In this document: piece by piece, positions 17,533 through 63,515 of the stretch
Layout of the letters: the number at the start of each line of letters is the position of its first letter
How positions within the stretch are numbered: position 1 is the stretch's first letter
Source of the DNA: a virus
Lineage: Duplodnaviria; Caudoviricetes
DNA length: 64,000 nt
Reading direction: 5' to 3' (one strand)
Virus record (IMG/VR): IMGVR_UViG_3300032038_000001
Coordinates: 32,001 to 96,000 of that record
The notes under the pieces: model-generated
Told to the model about the DNA's origin: nothing
What the model saw: the letters and a program-made list of their open reading frames with translations, nothing else
Database searches by the model: none
Made by a program: the position numbers and the translations under genes

Positions 17533-17605
17533 GCGTCATTAGCTCATCTGGCAGAGCACAAAACTTTTAATTTTGGGGTACGGGGTTCGAGTCCCCGATG
17601 ACGCA
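17533..17605 (+). tRNA. tRNA-Lys(TTT)
   Basis: GCGTCAT/ATGACGC acceptor stem, CAAAA-CTTTTAA-TTTTG anticodon arm, GTTCGAG T-loop; no encoded CCA. Confidence 0.93.
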
Positions 17606-17609
17606 TTAA

Positions 17610-17695
17610 GGAGAAGTACCCAAGTGGTTGAAGGGTCTGGTCTTGAAAACCAGTAGGCTGTAACAGGTGCAAGGGTTCGAATCCCTTCTTCTCCG
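17610..17695 (+). tRNA. tRNA-Ser(TGA)
   Basis: GGAGAAG/CTTCTCC acceptor stem, CTGGT-CTTGAAA-ACCAG anticodon arm, long variable arm. Confidence 0.93.
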
Positions 17696-30957: not shown

Positions 30958-31353
30958 ATGTCTATACCTGTTACTATAACCGAGCAGATTAATAATGCTG
31001 AAAAATGGGAGATATCTTACAGAACACTACACCCCTCTGCAATACTAAAAGATGAATTTAGCTCTAGGAACATAGAAATTCCGTTTTCATCATTAACTAA
31101 TAAATACAGACATTTTTTAAGCAAAATCGTCAGAACTACAACATTGGATGATAAATTACAGGCTAGATATAAACAGAGACCAAAATTAGTTTCATACGAT
31201 TTATATGGAACTACAGAATTATGGAATGATATACTTATATTAAATAATTGCTTTTCTACTATTGAATTTAATCCAGTTGTTATAAAAGCATATAACCCTG
31301 ATAAATTGAAAGAATATATCAACGAGATTTTGATTCTGGAAAAATTGATATAA
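30958..31353 (+). CDS. baseplate wedge protein (T4 gp53/LysM-like)
   Basis: RPKLVSYDLYGTTELWNDILILNN signature. Confidence 0.7.
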   Translation: MSIPVTITEQINNAEKWEISYRTLHPSAILKDEFSSRNIEIPFSSLTNKYRHFLSKIVRTTTLDDKLQARYKQRPKLVSYDLYGTTELWNDILILNNCFSTIEFNPVVIKAYNPDKLKEYINEILILEKLI

Positions 31354-31373
31354 ATTAAATTTTATTTTTCTAT

Positions 31374-31580
31374 AACATTCTATTAAGGGGGAACCCCTAC
31401 CGGCTGGGGGAGCGAAAAGCGAGCCCACAAATGGGGGATAAAAAAATAAAAAAAAGAGAAGAAAAATAAAAAAAGAGAAAGATAAAAGAAAATAAATAGA
31501 ATAAGAAAGAGAAGGAAAACCCTGAATAACTTAAAAAATATGAAGATAGAAGGAGATTCGTACTCCTTCTATCTTTTTTA
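31374..31580 (+). other. candidate transcription-primed replication origin
   Basis: Promoter, three G5 runs, about 80-nt near-pure purine tract, terminator; near the strand-bias switch. Confidence 0.45.
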
Positions 31581-31680
31581 TCCAGTTTTTCTTAATAATA
31601 AATATATATATACGTTTTGGTTTTTATGTTTATTTTGACAATATGATATACAAAATAATTTATTTATGAGGTGATATTCA

Positions 31681-32871
31681 ATGGGTATTGATTTAAATAA
31701 TCAACAAATTGATTGTACTTATAAAATGGAACAATGGTGGAAGAATGGCACTAAACAGAGATTTGAAATAACCTCAAAAGCTGGTTGTGGTAAAACAACA
31801 GTAGCTAAGTATTTAATAGATAGAATAGGGTTAAAACAAGATGAAGTATTAGCTATGGCATTTATGGGTAAAGCTGCTTTACAATTATCAAAACAAGGAT
31901 TAAAAGCTAGAACTATTCATTCTGCTATTTATGACTATGAAAAAGTTTTAGCCAGAGATGAAAATAAAAAAATTATATTTAATTCAAATGGTAAACCAAA
32001 AATGATATCAAAATTCTTTTTAAAAGACCATCTACCTAAAAAGGTAAAACTCATTTTAATAGACGAAGGTTCTATGGTAGATGAAAAAATAGCTAAGGAT
32101 ATTGAAAGTTTTGGTTTACCAATTATTGTTTTAGGTGACTTAAATCAGTTACCACCTGTGTACGGTAATCCATATTTTTTACAAAATCCTGATTATGAAT
32201 TAACACAAATAATGAGACAAGCAGAAGATGACCCCATAGTAAGACTTGCTGATGATATTTTGAACGGTAAAGAACTACATCCTGGTATATATGGAAATTC
32301 AGCAGTAATAAACAGAAGCGATATTAATATTAATTATTTTACTAAATCTGATATAATTCTTTGTGGTACTAATAAAACAAGATTTAATATTAATAATTTT
32401 TGTCGTTCTGATATAAAAAAAATAATCAAATTGGAATACCCTCACATTGGTGAAAAAGTTATTTGCAGAAAGAATAATTGGGATAAATGTATTGATGACA
32501 CATTATATATGACCAATGGTACAACAGGGTATGTTGAGAATATATATAGGGATAGTTTTAATGGTAAAACTATGTGTATGGATTTCCGTCCAGACTTTTC
32601 TAAAAAGTGTTTTAAAAATGTTACATTTAGCTATAAGCATATGTATGAAATTCCAGGAACACAAAATGATGAAGACTCATTTATTGATAAATTTAATGAT
32701 AAAATGGAGTACGCATATGCTATTACTGTTCATAGCTCCCAAGGTAGTCAATGGGATAAAGTTTTATATTTTATGGAAAATATGATGAGAACAGAACTTG
32801 ATAGAAGACGACTAAATTATACAGCTATAACAAGAGCTGCTAAACAGATAGTAATTGTGTTGAACAGGTAA
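31681..32871 (+). CDS. Dda/RecD-like SF1B helicase
   Basis: AGCGKTT, TIHS, DEGSM, GDLNQLPPV, RQ, YAITVHSSQGS, YTAITRA. Confidence 0.92.
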   Translation: MGIDLNNQQIDCTYKMEQWWKNGTKQRFEITSKAGCGKTTVAKYLIDRIGLKQDEVLAMAFMGKAALQLSKQGLKARTIHSAIYDYEKVLARDENKKIIFNSNGKPKMISKFFLKDHLPKKVKLILIDEGSMVDEKIAKDIESFGLPIIVLGDLNQLPPVYGNPYFLQNPDYELTQIMRQAEDDPIVRLADDILNGKELHPGIYGNSAVINRSDININYFTKSDIILCGTNKTRFNINNFCRSDIKKIIKLEYPHIGEKVICRKNNWDKCIDDTLYMTNGTTGYVENIYRDSFNGKTMCMDFRPDFSKKCFKNVTFSYKHMYEIPGTQNDEDSFIDKFNDKMEYAYAITVHSSQGSQWDKVLYFMENMMRTELDRRRLNYTAITRAAKQIVIVLNR

Positions 32872-59583: not shown

Positions 59584-59654
59584 TGGGGTATCGCCAAGAG
59601 GTAAGGCAACGGACTTTGACTCCGTCATCATCAGTTCGAATCTGGTTACCCCAA
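59584..59654 (+). tRNA. tRNA-Gln(TTG)
   Basis: TGGGGTA/TACCCCA acceptor stem, ACGGA-CTTTGAC-TCCGT anticodon arm, TTCGAAT T-loop; AACA-N6-TA at 59555-59566. Confidence 0.92.
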
Positions 59655-63020: not shown

Positions 63021-63515
63021 ATGGATGTTGTAATATATTCAGATGGTGCTGCAAGAGGTAATCCGGGACGCGGCGGATATGGAACGATAATACTATATGA
63101 AGATAGTGAAGGTAATAAGTTTCAGAAGGAACTAACTGCTGGTTATATAAAAACCACAAATAACCGAATGGAACTAATTGGTGCCATCAGAGGTCTTCAA
63201 GCATTAAACACACCATGCAAAGTATCGCTTTATTCAGATAGCCAGTACCTATGTAATGCATTCAATAAGGGATGGATATGGAGCTGGCTTAAAAAGAAAT
63301 GGAAGAAAGCTGATGGCCAGTCAGTAAAAAATGTAGACCTTTGGAAAGATCTTTTAAAACTCATAAAAATACATGAGGTTAAATTTATATGGATCAAAGG
63401 TCATGATGGAAATGAATTCAATGAGCGGTGTGATAAGTTAGCTACAGATTCTGCTGATAACAATGCTACTCTTGAAGATAAAAATTATTCGGACGAGGGT
63501 GAGGCGGATGTATAA
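63021..63515 (+). CDS. rnhA: ribonuclease HI
   Basis: SDGAARGNPGRGG, TTNNRMEL, SDSQY, VKNVDLW, WIKGH, NERCDKLA. Confidence 0.95.
   Translation: MDVVIYSDGAARGNPGRGGYGTIILYEDSEGNKFQKELTAGYIKTTNNRMELIGAIRGLQALNTPCKVSLYSDSQYLCNAFNKGWIWSWLKKKWKKADGQSVKNVDLWKDLLKLIKIHEVKFIWIKGHDGNEFNERCDKLATDSADNNATLEDKNYSDEGEADV

What the first reader, a model, noticed from the sequence alone, without database searches (positions are those of the whole stretch)
31374..31580. Candidate R-loop replication origin: promoter, G-runs, purine tract, terminator
Seen: AACA-N6-TA (31374-31385) leads into a very GC-rich 50-nt stretch with three GGGGG runs. An approximately 80-nt C-free, almost all A/G tract with a duplicated AAAAATAAAAAAAGAGAA follows, then a terminator (about 31543-31580). 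There is no ORF. Genes are mostly minus-strand left of 30.4 kb and mostly plus-strand to the right. Known: T4 origins use promoter-driven persistent R-loops, and G/purine-rich transcripts favour RNA:DNA hybrids. Inference: a transcription-primed origin, possibly stabilised by a hybrid G-quadruplex; it lies near RecA and helicase genes, and RNase H is in the window.
Basis: inference. Interest (0 to 1): 0.7.

Follow-up and report, generated by a model that had tools for sequence, protein, structure and literature searches.

The report
Duplicated A-rich late RNA unit
An uncultured 250-kb AR9-like jumbo phage carries two near-identical copies of a gene-free unit (late promoter, G-run head, about 90 bases of almost pure A/G, terminator) that related phages keep at the same two genome positions. 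It is most likely a new non-coding RNA, and the proposed replication-origin role is possible but gained no support from any test I could run.

Summary
AACA-N6-TA sits at 31374-31385. A 52-nt head of 67% GC follows, with three G5 runs. The 91-nt C-free tract is the longest in the genome. A 13-bp terminator hairpin closes the unit.

New here:
- A second copy lies 158 kb away, inverted (promoter and head 110/110 identical).
- Relative G003 also has two copies in the same two gene contexts. The pair is alike within each genome but very different between genomes (concerted evolution).
- Positional counterparts exist in four more lineages. Sequence varies: an A-rich, non-coding stretch and at least one G run recur, but G clusters and purine purity do not.
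- No Rfam family matches.

Origin tests gave no support. Skew is fully explained by gene orientation. RNase H is absent from two relatives that carry the unit. The promoter is the late type.

The anatomy still fits a T4-like promoter-plus-unwinding-element origin, and both copy sites lie 1-2 kb from the two main divergent gene switches.

Verdict: a conserved, duplicated late non-coding RNA gene (about 0.5), probably a protein-binding A-rich RNA. An R-loop origin gets about 0.2. The scan had already found the other copy (e1-5642599) and read it the same way.

The parts
30958..31353 (+). Upstream late gene p131 (131 aa; resembles the N-terminus of baseplate wedge gp53). Copy 1 of the unit sits between its stop codon and the terminator.
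   Evidence: PHROG baseplate wedge hit at 7e-10. Weak Pfam Phage_gp53 hit. tblastn to AR9 gp010. Its operon has its own AACA-N6-TA at genome 62515. In G003 the homologue is likewise followed by a copy of the unit.
31351..31373 (+). T-rich upstream promoter block (AAATTAAATTTTATTTTTCTAT). The repeat shared by the two copies starts here.
   Evidence: Identical in both copies. Similar blocks precede the units of G002 and G003 and late protein genes in G009, G012, G015 and G018.
31374..31385 (+). Late-type promoter core AACA-TTCTAT-TA. The predicted transcription start is A31385.
   Evidence: Matches the AR9 late consensus, with the last base as start site (PMC5312081). In this genome 69 of 219 core matches lie in the 9% that is intergenic, and 52 of those lie within 150 nt upstream of a same-strand ORF. 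The same 14-mer drives an endolysin gene in G015/G018. Its position-weight score is only mid-rank (138th of 365).
31386..31437 (+). GC-rich head with three G5 runs, C4 and C3 runs, and the motif GAGCGAA. It includes a 5'-terminal hairpin AGGGG-GAA-CCCCU at 31386-31398.
   Evidence: Sequence. Identical in copy 2, with one substitution in strain G019. The fold is no more stable than shuffles (z -0.7). The GGGGGRACCCC hairpin is kept in G003. GAGCGAA(G) is shared with G002, G005 and G008 (P about 0.008).
31438..31519 (+). A/G-only tail. It is part of the 91-nt C-free run 31429-31519 (71% A, 20% G, 9% T), is predicted unpaired, and contains quasi-repeats.
   Evidence: Its length differs between copies and strains by indels of 1 to 22 nt. 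It is the purine maximum of the genome.
31514..31541 (+). Conserved 3' block GGAAAACCCTGAATAACTTAAAAAATAT. The duplicated module ends here.
   Evidence: 25 of 26 identical between copies and present in strains AUXO and G019. The short frames that start here differ in every copy (read directly from the sequences).
31543..31581 (+). Intrinsic terminator: 13-bp stem, 7-nt loop, T6. It is specific to this locus and is not part of the repeat.
   Evidence: In strain AUXO only the loop changes. In G002, which lacks a unit here, a terminator follows the p131 homologue directly.
31681..32871 (+). Downstream Dda/RecD-like helicase gene. It is not part of the unit and was used to find relatives.
   Evidence: PHROG Dda-like helicase hit at 2e-83. 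Homologues.

Best explanation
The stretch is a self-contained late transcription unit that makes a non-coding RNA of about 200 nt. The phage's non-virion RNA polymerase starts at A31385. The RNA begins with a small GC hairpin and a G-run-rich head, continues through about 85 nt of unpaired A-rich (here A/G-only) sequence, and ends at an intrinsic terminator.

The genome keeps two copies: this one, and an inverted one at genome 221.5-221.7 kb. Recombination keeps them alike. Relatives keep one, two or tandem copies at the same places.

My inference is that the free RNA is the product. Its long, single-stranded, poly(A)-like tract would act as a platform or decoy for an A-tract-binding protein of the host or phage. 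Candidates are an Hfq-type distal face, ribosomal protein S1, or a single-strand-specific nuclease. Hairpins at both ends would protect the RNA from exonucleases.

Shown: the anatomy, the duplication, the conservation and the absence of coding capacity.
Inferred: transcription, timing, RNA stability and the binding partner.
For: 1. Independent unit. Copy 2 lies antisense between two plus-strand genes, with its own promoter and a terminator about 115 nt beyond the repeat.
2. The duplicated module is exactly promoter + head + tail + 3' block. Each copy uses a terminator belonging to its own locus.
3. Old two-copy state with concerted evolution.
   - G003 has copies downstream of the p131 homologue and between the p429 and p149 homologues, the same two contexts as here. 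They are 94% alike over 184 nt.
   - G000 and G003 units align only in the promoter and the GGGGGRACCCC hairpin.
4. Positional counterparts, all non-coding:
   - G002 (about 470 nt, nine runs of four or more G, two purine tracts);
   - G005 (tandem pair);
   - G008 (A/C/G tail of about 150 nt);
   - G016 (G7 runs and a CCCC-GAA-GGGG hairpin).
5. What recurs is a long A-rich stretch (A 0.39-0.57, A well above T), kept in five of the six lineages though its minor base changes (G, U or C). This fits a single-stranded A-tract ligand better than an R-loop or a fold.
6. Hairpins at both ends, and repeated gain of copies (dispersed in G000 and G003, tandem in G002 and G005), fit an abundant, stable RNA.
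7. The promoter is credible. In AR9, termination at predicted terminators was seen by RNA-seq (PMC5312081).
8. No conserved ORF: the short frames differ between copies and strains.
Against: - No expression data.
- The heads are no more stable than shuffled sequence (z -0.7 to -1.5), and no covariation could be tested because close strains differ by 0-1 bases in the head.
- Between close strains the promoter and head are not measurably more conserved than flanking genes (99% against 97.5-98.7%; 97% against 93-94.5%).
- The phage encodes no Hfq or cold-shock protein, the host is unknown, and no binding partner is identified.
- G016 lacks the A-rich tail, and G001 has only a promoter plus about 55 nt plus a terminator at the p131 site. 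The 'A-tract platform' is therefore not universal.
- The same anatomy (promoter, G clusters, purine non-template strand, A+T-rich stretch) also suits an R-loop.
Confidence: 0.5

Rival explanations
1. Transcription-primed (R-loop) replication origin. The late-type polymerase fires into G clusters that nucleate an RNA:DNA hybrid. The hybrid extends over the purine/A+T-rich tract, which acts as the unwinding element. The RNA 3' end primes leading-strand synthesis, and the displaced purine strand, which cannot self-pair, loads the helicase. Two copies would mean two origins.
For: - The anatomy equals the minimal T4 oriF/oriG, which is a promoter plus a downstream A+T-rich unwinding element whose sequence is not specific (PMC3016281).
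- The two copies are the top hybrid-favouring windows on their strands.
- Runs of five or more G on the non-template strand occur in all six lineages, although such runs are rare in these genomes (6-16 per strand).
- The ancestral-locus unit lies 1.8-1.9 kb from the global cumulative GC-skew minimum in G000, G003 and G008. The second copy site (the p131 locus) is the other main minus-to-plus switch. The T4 review notes that some origins coincide with such divergences.
- G008 has an RNase H1 with four hybrid-binding domains directly upstream of its unit.
- T4 late-promoter R-loops are thought to prime replication when UvsW is absent (PMC3016281).
- A 2026 jumbo-phage review does not mention replication origins.
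Against: - Skew is wholly explained by gene orientation. The two-origin model gives b=-0.007, and the best change points (35/87.5 kb and 137.5/235 kb) are elsewhere and disagree with each other.
- The link with divergent switches is inherited by synteny, so it counts as one or two observations. The unit sits 1-2 genes away from the switch, and copy 2 and G003 cB point towards it.
- G clusters and purine purity are lost in G003 and weak in G008.
- RNase H is absent in G003 and G005 and lies 40 kb away in G002.
- C runs in the head would sequester the G runs in RNA hairpins.
- The promoter is the late class, and a strong terminator follows every copy.
- The hybrid advantage is only modestly above coding G-rich windows.
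Confidence: 0.2
2. Functionless or selfish promoter cassette. A strong late promoter with a decayed leader (for example from a lost late gene) was copied by illegitimate recombination, and its low-complexity tail expands and contracts by slippage. Any RNA made has no role.
For: - The same promoter type, and in G015/G018 the same 14-mer, precedes ordinary late genes. Earlier scan notes describe shuffled promoter-leader cassettes elsewhere in this genome.
- The tail is hypervariable by indels.
- The head is not more stable than shuffles.
- No excess conservation between close strains.
- G001 has a promoter with only about 55 nt before a terminator.
Against: - A non-coding unit persists at the same loci across lineages whose core proteins are only 42-58% identical.
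- The two-copy state is kept and homogenised in two diverged lineages, and doubled in tandem in two others.
- The extreme composition (longest C-free and G-free runs and the purine maximum of three genomes) is not what decay of a coding leader gives.
- A shared GAGCGAA(G) motif is present.
Confidence: 0.12
3. DNA-level late element of another kind. One option is a transcription-activated site for packaging initiation or concatemer processing, as transcription is needed at T7/T3 concatemer junctions (my own knowledge). Another is a recombination hot spot that starts recombination-dependent late replication.
For: - Late promoter.
- Two homogenised copies show that they do recombine: the AUXO copy-1 tail resembles the G019 copy-2 tail.
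- The copy-1 junction is a rearrangement breakpoint between G000 and G003.
- AR9-type phages package by headful (my own knowledge).
Against: - No terminase link was examined or seen.
- No iterons or significant repeats beyond the tail quasi-repeats.
- The contig ends of relatives are assembly ends, not mapped termini.
- Nothing specific points to packaging.
Confidence: 0.08

Closest known systems
T4 ori(uvsY)/oriF and ori(34)/oriG R-loop origins (PMC3016281)
   Same: A minimal module of about 100-200 bp made of a phage-specific promoter followed by an A+T-rich stretch whose exact sequence is not conserved. It lies close to recombination and helicase genes and near a transcriptional divergence. 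More than one copy per genome.
   Different: - The T4 promoters are middle-mode and are shut off late, whereas this one is the AR9 late type.
- The T4 origins are not homologous to each other, have no G clusters, and are not followed by a dedicated terminator.
- No R-loop or initiation data exist here, and skew gives no support.
ColE1 RNA II and the mitochondrial LSP-CSBII primer (G-run-stabilised persistent hybrids; my own knowledge)
   Same: G runs in the transcript close to the promoter, on the non-template strand. A hybrid G-quadruplex between the RNA and the displaced strand is conceivable with three G5 runs.
   Different: - In those systems the G run marks the RNA-to-DNA transition site. 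Here 85-110 nt of A-rich sequence and a terminator follow.
- The head also carries C runs that can pair with the G runs.
- G clusters are not conserved in G003.
Protein-sponge RNAs with repeated A-rich motifs, such as Pseudomonas CrcZ, which sequesters Hfq/Crc through A-rich (ARN-type) motifs (PMC6422490)
   Same: A non-coding RNA whose main feature is a long, unstructured, A-rich region made of many potential A-R-N or A-tract sites, flanked by hairpins. Copy number and length vary.
   Different: - CrcZ is chromosomal, about 400 nt, with discrete spaced motifs and a known partner.
- Here the tract is continuous and poly(A)-like, phage-encoded and late. No partner is known, and the phage has no Hfq.
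- This is a functional analogy only; no homology was found.
AR9 late transcription units (PMC5312081)
   Same: The promoter consensus AACA-N6-TA/G with the last base as the start site. Late units are embedded between early operons, and termination occurs at intrinsic terminators.
   Different: The reported AR9 late units drive proteins, one tRNA or antisense RNAs. No A-rich non-coding unit is described, and none lies after the AR9 gp010 baseplate wedge gene.

Membership tests
AR9-type late (non-virion RNA polymerase) promoter | AACA-N6-T(A/G) with the last base as start site (PMC5312081) | tested here: met
   AACATTCTATTA at 31374-31385. The motif is enriched in intergenic DNA upstream of ORFs. 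The identical 14-mer precedes an endolysin gene in G015/G018.
AR9-type late (non-virion RNA polymerase) promoter | The genome encodes the split multisubunit RNA polymerases that read such promoters | tested here: met
   Two beta-like (RNA_pol_Rpb2_6) genes at genome 69.0-70.2 kb and 231.9-232.6 kb. No beta-prime Pfam hit, as expected for very diverged subunits.
AR9-type late (non-virion RNA polymerase) promoter | Late timing and uracil-containing template | not testable with these tools
   No expression or base-composition data.
T4-type R-loop origin (oriF/oriG) | Promoter plus a downstream A+T-rich unwinding element within about 100 bp | tested here: met
   Promoter at 31374-31385 and a tail that is 80% A+T at 31438-31519.
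T4-type R-loop origin (oriF/oriG) | Promoter of the class that is active when replication starts and is shut off later (middle-mode in T4) | tested here: inconclusive
   The promoter is the late class by sequence. [quoted passage not shown] Timing here is unknown.
T4-type R-loop origin (oriF/oriG) | Persistent RNA:DNA hybrid, RNase H processing, and initiation of DNA synthesis at the site | not testable with these tools
   Only indirect evidence. The hybrid-versus-duplex energy ranks first on each strand. RNase HI is present in G000 but absent in G003 and G005, which carry the unit.
T4-type R-loop origin (oriF/oriG) | A replication-associated compositional shift at the site | tested here: not met
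   Third-codon-position skew is explained by gene orientation. The replication term is 0.03 or less and its change points lie elsewhere. The cumulative minima simply follow gene orientation.
G-quadruplex / G-cluster R-loop initiation element | Clustered G runs on the non-template strand just downstream of the promoter, conserved among relatives | tested here: inconclusive
   Three G5 runs in G000, nine runs of four or more G in G002, and G7 runs in G016. G003 has only one G6 run, and it pairs with a C4 run. G008 has none in its head.
Any curated RNA family (Rfam 15) | A covariance-model match at or near the gathering score | tested here: not met
   No hit on the window, apart from three tRNAs elsewhere, and none on the units of G002, G003, G005, G008 or copy 2. 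The best E-values are 0.03-0.5, to unrelated miRNA and plastid models.
Protein-sponge sRNA (CrcZ/CsrB kind) | Many copies of a short protein-binding motif in single-stranded context | tested here: inconclusive
   The tail is predicted unpaired and consists almost wholly of A-R-N / A-tract triplets. No defined spaced motif emerges, and the minor base varies by lineage.
Protein-sponge sRNA (CrcZ/CsrB kind) | An identified protein partner that the RNA titrates | not testable with these tools
   The host is unknown. The phage has no Hfq or CSD gene.
Base-pairing (antisense) sRNA | Better-than-chance complementarity to target mRNAs | tested here: not met
   Duplex energies of the tail against 230 phage 5' regions equal those of the reversed and shuffled tails (mean -12.3 against -12.3; minimum -25 against -24 to -28). 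Host targets could not be tested.

The most novel reading that the evidence does not exclude
The module is a transcription-primed replication origin of an AR9-like jumbo phage, a group for which I found no described origin. A phage-polymerase promoter fires into G clusters and a purine/A+T-rich unwinding tract. The element is kept in two copies, homogenised by gene conversion, at the two principal divergent gene switches of the genome.
Probability: 0.2. Interest if true: 0.75.

Novelty: new variant of a known kind. Interest (0 to 1): 0.5.

Why it matters
- Replication origins and non-coding RNAs of AR9-like and other non-nucleus jumbo phages are essentially uncharted. A 2026 review of jumbo phages never mentions an origin and gives non-coding RNAs one sentence.
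- This unit is compact, easy to recognise and conserved by position. A rumen jumbo-phage clade keeps, duplicates and homogenises it, which implies a real function.
- If it is an RNA, it would be a new kind of phage late RNA built around an internal poly(A)-like tract. That could be a decoy for host RNA-binding proteins or nucleases.
- If it is an origin, it would give the first handle on how these uracil-DNA, host-polymerase-independent phages start replication.
- Either way the 230-bp module is a well-defined object for a deletion, a Northern blot or DRIP, once a cultured relative is found.

Tried and rejected
- **Rfam:** gathering and permissive searches on the window and on five related loci found nothing.
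- **Nucleotide search of GenBank phages:** no match.
- **Exact-pattern scans for the head:** one scan found nothing and another returned a single unrelated coding repeat. The hairpin pattern found only G003, the close strain G019 and unrelated phages. The metagenome scan gave one close strain, AUXO.
- **The look-up of encoding contigs was closed.** The 65-72% helicase relatives seen could therefore not be fetched.
- No RNA or coverage evidence was available, and read laying was not used.
- **The search for related loci:** the helicase alone and the p149 alignments both failed.
- **Element next to the helicase in relatives:** absent, and absent after the p131 homologue in G002, G005 and G008.
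- **Structured-RNA head:** not supported by energy z-scores. Covariation could not be tested.
- **Antisense targets of the tail in phage 5' regions:** none beyond the controls.
- **Inverted complementarity between the T-rich promoter block and the tail** (possible cruciform or self-targeting): at chance level (P 0.05-0.5 in G000, about 0.9 in G002 and G003).
- **Iterons or other repeats around either copy:** none convincing.
- **Small ORFs in the tail or 3' block:** the frames differ in every copy and strain, so this was rejected.
- **Replication signal in skew:** rejected.
- **General RNase H linkage:** rejected.
- **Phage-encoded Hfq or cold-shock partner:** none.
- **AR9 counterpart at the gp010/helicase region:** none.
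- **Extra purifying selection on the head between close strains:** not detectable.

Full report
**Context**

The window is bases 32001-96000 of a single 250,395-bp IMG/VR virus contig with 30.9% G+C, estimated complete. Its Dda-like helicase is only about 35% identical to those of AR9, PBS1, Staphylococcus S6-like and Listeria LPJP1 jumbo phages. It has hundreds of metagenomic relatives on contigs of 220-265 kb. The genome encodes two beta-like RNA polymerase genes. It is therefore a distant, uncultured member of the AR9-like group. Earlier scan notes call it a rumen phage.

**The observation**

- AACA-TTCTAT-TA at 31374-31385.
- A 52-nt head of 67% G+C, with G5 runs at 31387, 31406 and 31433.
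- A 91-nt C-free run at 31429-31519 (65 A, 18 G, 8 T). It is the longest in the genome.
- The near-duplicate AAAAATAAAAAAA(A)GAGAA at 31442 and 31462.
- A perfect 13-bp hairpin plus T6 at 31543-31581.
- No ORF between the p131 gene (ends 31353) and the helicase gene (starts 31681).

The UvsX-like and helicase genes flank the site, and an RNase HI gene lies at window 63024-63455.

**A second copy**

A genome-wide scan for purine tracts and GC islands found the same element at genome 221,516-221,719 on the minus strand.
- The repeat starts about 35 nt upstream of the AACA box.
- Promoter and head are identical over 110 nt.
- The tail differs by about 8 substitutions and three indels (1, 4 and 15 nt).
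- The repeat ends at GAATAACTTAAAAA.
- The terminators are different and belong to each locus. Copy 2 lies antisense between two plus-strand ORFs (p429 and p149), and its terminator is about 115 nt beyond the repeat.

The duplicated thing is therefore a promoter-head-tail module, and at least copy 2 is an independent unit.

**Relatives**

Handles G001-G018 are relatives reached through a helicase alignment. I fetched G002, G003, G005, G008 and G019 whole.

- **G003.** UvsX is 78% and the helicase 55% identical to G000. It has two copies: one directly downstream of the p131 homologue and one between the p429 and p149 homologues, the same two contexts as in G000. The G003 copies are 94% alike over 184 nt. 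Compared with G000 they share only the promoter block and the GGGGGRACCCC hairpin. Their tail is A/U-rich, looks like (AAU)n, and has almost no G.
- **Close strains.** AUXO012855499 carries copy 1 and G019 carries copy 2. Their heads are nearly invariant and their tails differ by many indels. The AUXO copy-1 tail resembles the G019 copy-2 tail more than it resembles G000 copy 1. Together these facts indicate an old two-copy state kept uniform by gene conversion.
- **G002.** One unit of about 470 nt with nine runs of four or more G and two purine tracts, next to the p429 homologue. Its promoter AACAGATTAGTAAT is close to that of G003 (AACATATTAGTAAT).
- **G005.** A tandem pair in a 1-kb gene-free gap, 2 kb from the p149 homologue.
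- **G008.** A unit with an A/C/G tail of about 150 nt, 2 kb from the p149 homologue.
- **G016.** G7 runs and a CCCC-GAA-GGGG hairpin but no A-rich tail, next to a homologue of a G000 gene at 228.5 kb.
- **G001.** Only a promoter, about 55 nt and a terminator after the p131 homologue.
- **No unit after the p131 homologue** in G002, G005 and G008.
- **AR9.** No unit after gp010.

No unit matches any Rfam family.

**What is conserved**

1. A late-type promoter with a T-rich upstream block.
2. Absence of coding capacity.
3. At least one run of five or more G in the sense strand.
4. A short motif GAGCGAA(G), in four of the five lineages compared (P about 0.008 against shuffles).
5. A long A-rich stretch with A far above T, in five of six lineages.
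6. A terminator.

What is not conserved: G clusters, purine purity, the sequence of the tail, and the copy number.

**Promoter**

The AR9 late consensus is AACA-N6-TA/G with the last base as start site, found at 94 mapped starts (PMC5312081). In this genome 69 of 219 core matches lie in the 9% that is intergenic, and 52 of those lie within 150 nt upstream of a same-strand ORF. The local consensus is AAAACA-N6-TAA. The unit's promoter scores mid-rank because it has ATAACA. The identical 14-mer AACATTCTATTAAG, with the same T-rich block, drives an Amidase_3 endolysin in G015/G018. I therefore treat it as a real late promoter. Its timing is inferred.

**Tests of the origin idea**

- **Skew.** The cumulative GC skew has a local minimum at about 62 kb and its global minimum at 219.8 kb, close to the two copies. 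These minima coincide with cumulative gene orientation, and the genome has 46 orientation blocks. Third-position GC skew read on the coding strand is positive in nearly every block (43 of 46) whatever its direction. A regression gives orientation a=0.135 and a replication term of 0.03 or less. The best change points (35/87.5 kb for GC3, 137.5/235 kb for AT3) are neither at the element nor consistent with each other, and the two-origin model gives b=-0.007. Skew therefore carries no replication signal.
- **Position.** In G003 and G008 the ancestral-locus unit also lies 1.8-1.9 kb from the skew minimum. The p131 locus is the other main switch in G002 and G005. This is suggestive, but it is inherited by synteny.
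- **Hybrid energy.** Nearest-neighbour RNA:DNA against DNA:DNA energies put the two copies first on their strands (-21.5 and -23.1 kcal per 100 nt, z about -4.3), but the next windows reach -17.7.
- **RNase H.** It is next to the unit only in G008, where it carries four hybrid-binding domains. It is absent from G003 and G005.
- **Comparison with T4.** T4 oriF and oriG are a middle-mode promoter plus an A+T-rich unwinding element, and they are switched off late (PMC3016281). The anatomy here fits. The promoter class does not obviously fit.

**Tests of RNA-level ideas**

- The whole unit folds better than shuffles (z -4.5), but this comes from the terminator.
- The heads alone do not fold better than shuffles (z -0.7 to -1.5).
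- The tail is predicted unpaired.
- The tail has no better-than-control complementarity to phage 5' regions.
- Its apparent complementarity to the T-rich promoter block is chance.
- The phage has no Hfq or cold-shock gene.

**Conclusion**

The best-supported reading (about 0.5) is a discrete late non-coding RNA gene, kept in two homogenised copies. Its defining part is an internal, single-stranded, poly(A)-like tract between protective hairpins. I infer that it binds or decoys an A-tract-binding protein, by analogy with A-rich sponge RNAs such as CrcZ (PMC6422490). This is an analogy, not membership of that family.

| Reading | Probability |
|---|---|
| Late non-coding RNA gene | about 0.5 |
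| R-loop replication origin | about 0.2 |
| Functionless promoter cassette | about 0.12 |
| Other DNA-level late element | about 0.08 |

The R-loop origin cannot be excluded without wet-lab data.

The scan had already met the other copy (e1-5642599) and reached the same ranking. I tested its claim of positional conservation myself. It holds, with an addition: both copy sites are shared with G003.

Noticed in passing
L059:54-1301 (G008 80,191-81,438, + strand): A 415-aa RNase H1 with four tandem N-terminal hybrid-binding domains (Cauli_VI x4) plus the catalytic domain, directly upstream of G008's A-rich unit. That number of hybrid-binding domains is unusual for a phage protein.
   Followed up: partly
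L001:5789-6238 (genome 221,789-222,238, +) and homologues in G002, G003, G005 and G008: p149 is a small protein with a lysine-rich N-terminus, a coiled-coil-like middle and a hydrophobic C-terminal segment, and no family hit. It stays within 0-2 kb of the unit in G000, G003, G005 and G008 (about 10 kb in G002). It is a possible functional partner or simply a syntenic marker.
   Followed up: partly
L001:5440-5475 minus strand (genome about 221,469): A second AACA-N6-TA motif (AACATTTAAATA) lies between the end of copy 2's repeat and its terminator, followed by ATG and a 34-codon frame without a clear ribosome-binding site. It is conserved in strain G019.
   Followed up: no
Proteins P0003, P0015, P0017, P0026-P0028, P0043, P0066, P0080 and others: Many close homologues of the helicase are 530-690 aa long instead of about 394 aa, and some carry a LAGLIDADG_3 domain (PF14528). 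This suggests intein or homing-endonuclease insertions in the helicase gene of related phages.
   Followed up: no
G008 241,165-241,905 and 243,253-243,684: The UvsX-like recombinase of G008 matches in two pieces about 1.3 kb apart. The gene appears to be interrupted, perhaps by an intron, intein or mobile element.
   Followed up: no
window 30958-31353, compared with AR9 gp010 (L168:537-3083): p131 corresponds only to the N-terminal part of the 848-aa AR9 baseplate wedge protein (gp53-like). In this clade the domain is a separate small gene.
   Followed up: partly
window 31600-31680: The helicase gene has its own upstream signals after the terminator (TTGACAATATGATATAC... then GAGGTG-N8-ATG). 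ATATGATATAC recurs at window 24484 and may be part of an early promoter of this phage.
   Followed up: partly
window 17533-17695 and 59584-59654: Three phage tRNA genes: Lys-UUU, Ser-UGA and Gln-UUG.
   Followed up: no
L176 (G001 about 72,900-73,010, minus strand): After the p131 homologue, G001 has the T-rich block plus AACA-AAAAGG-TA, followed by about 55 nt with a small AU hairpin and a terminator. This is a minimal promoter-to-terminator unit with no G runs and no A tail.
   Followed up: partly
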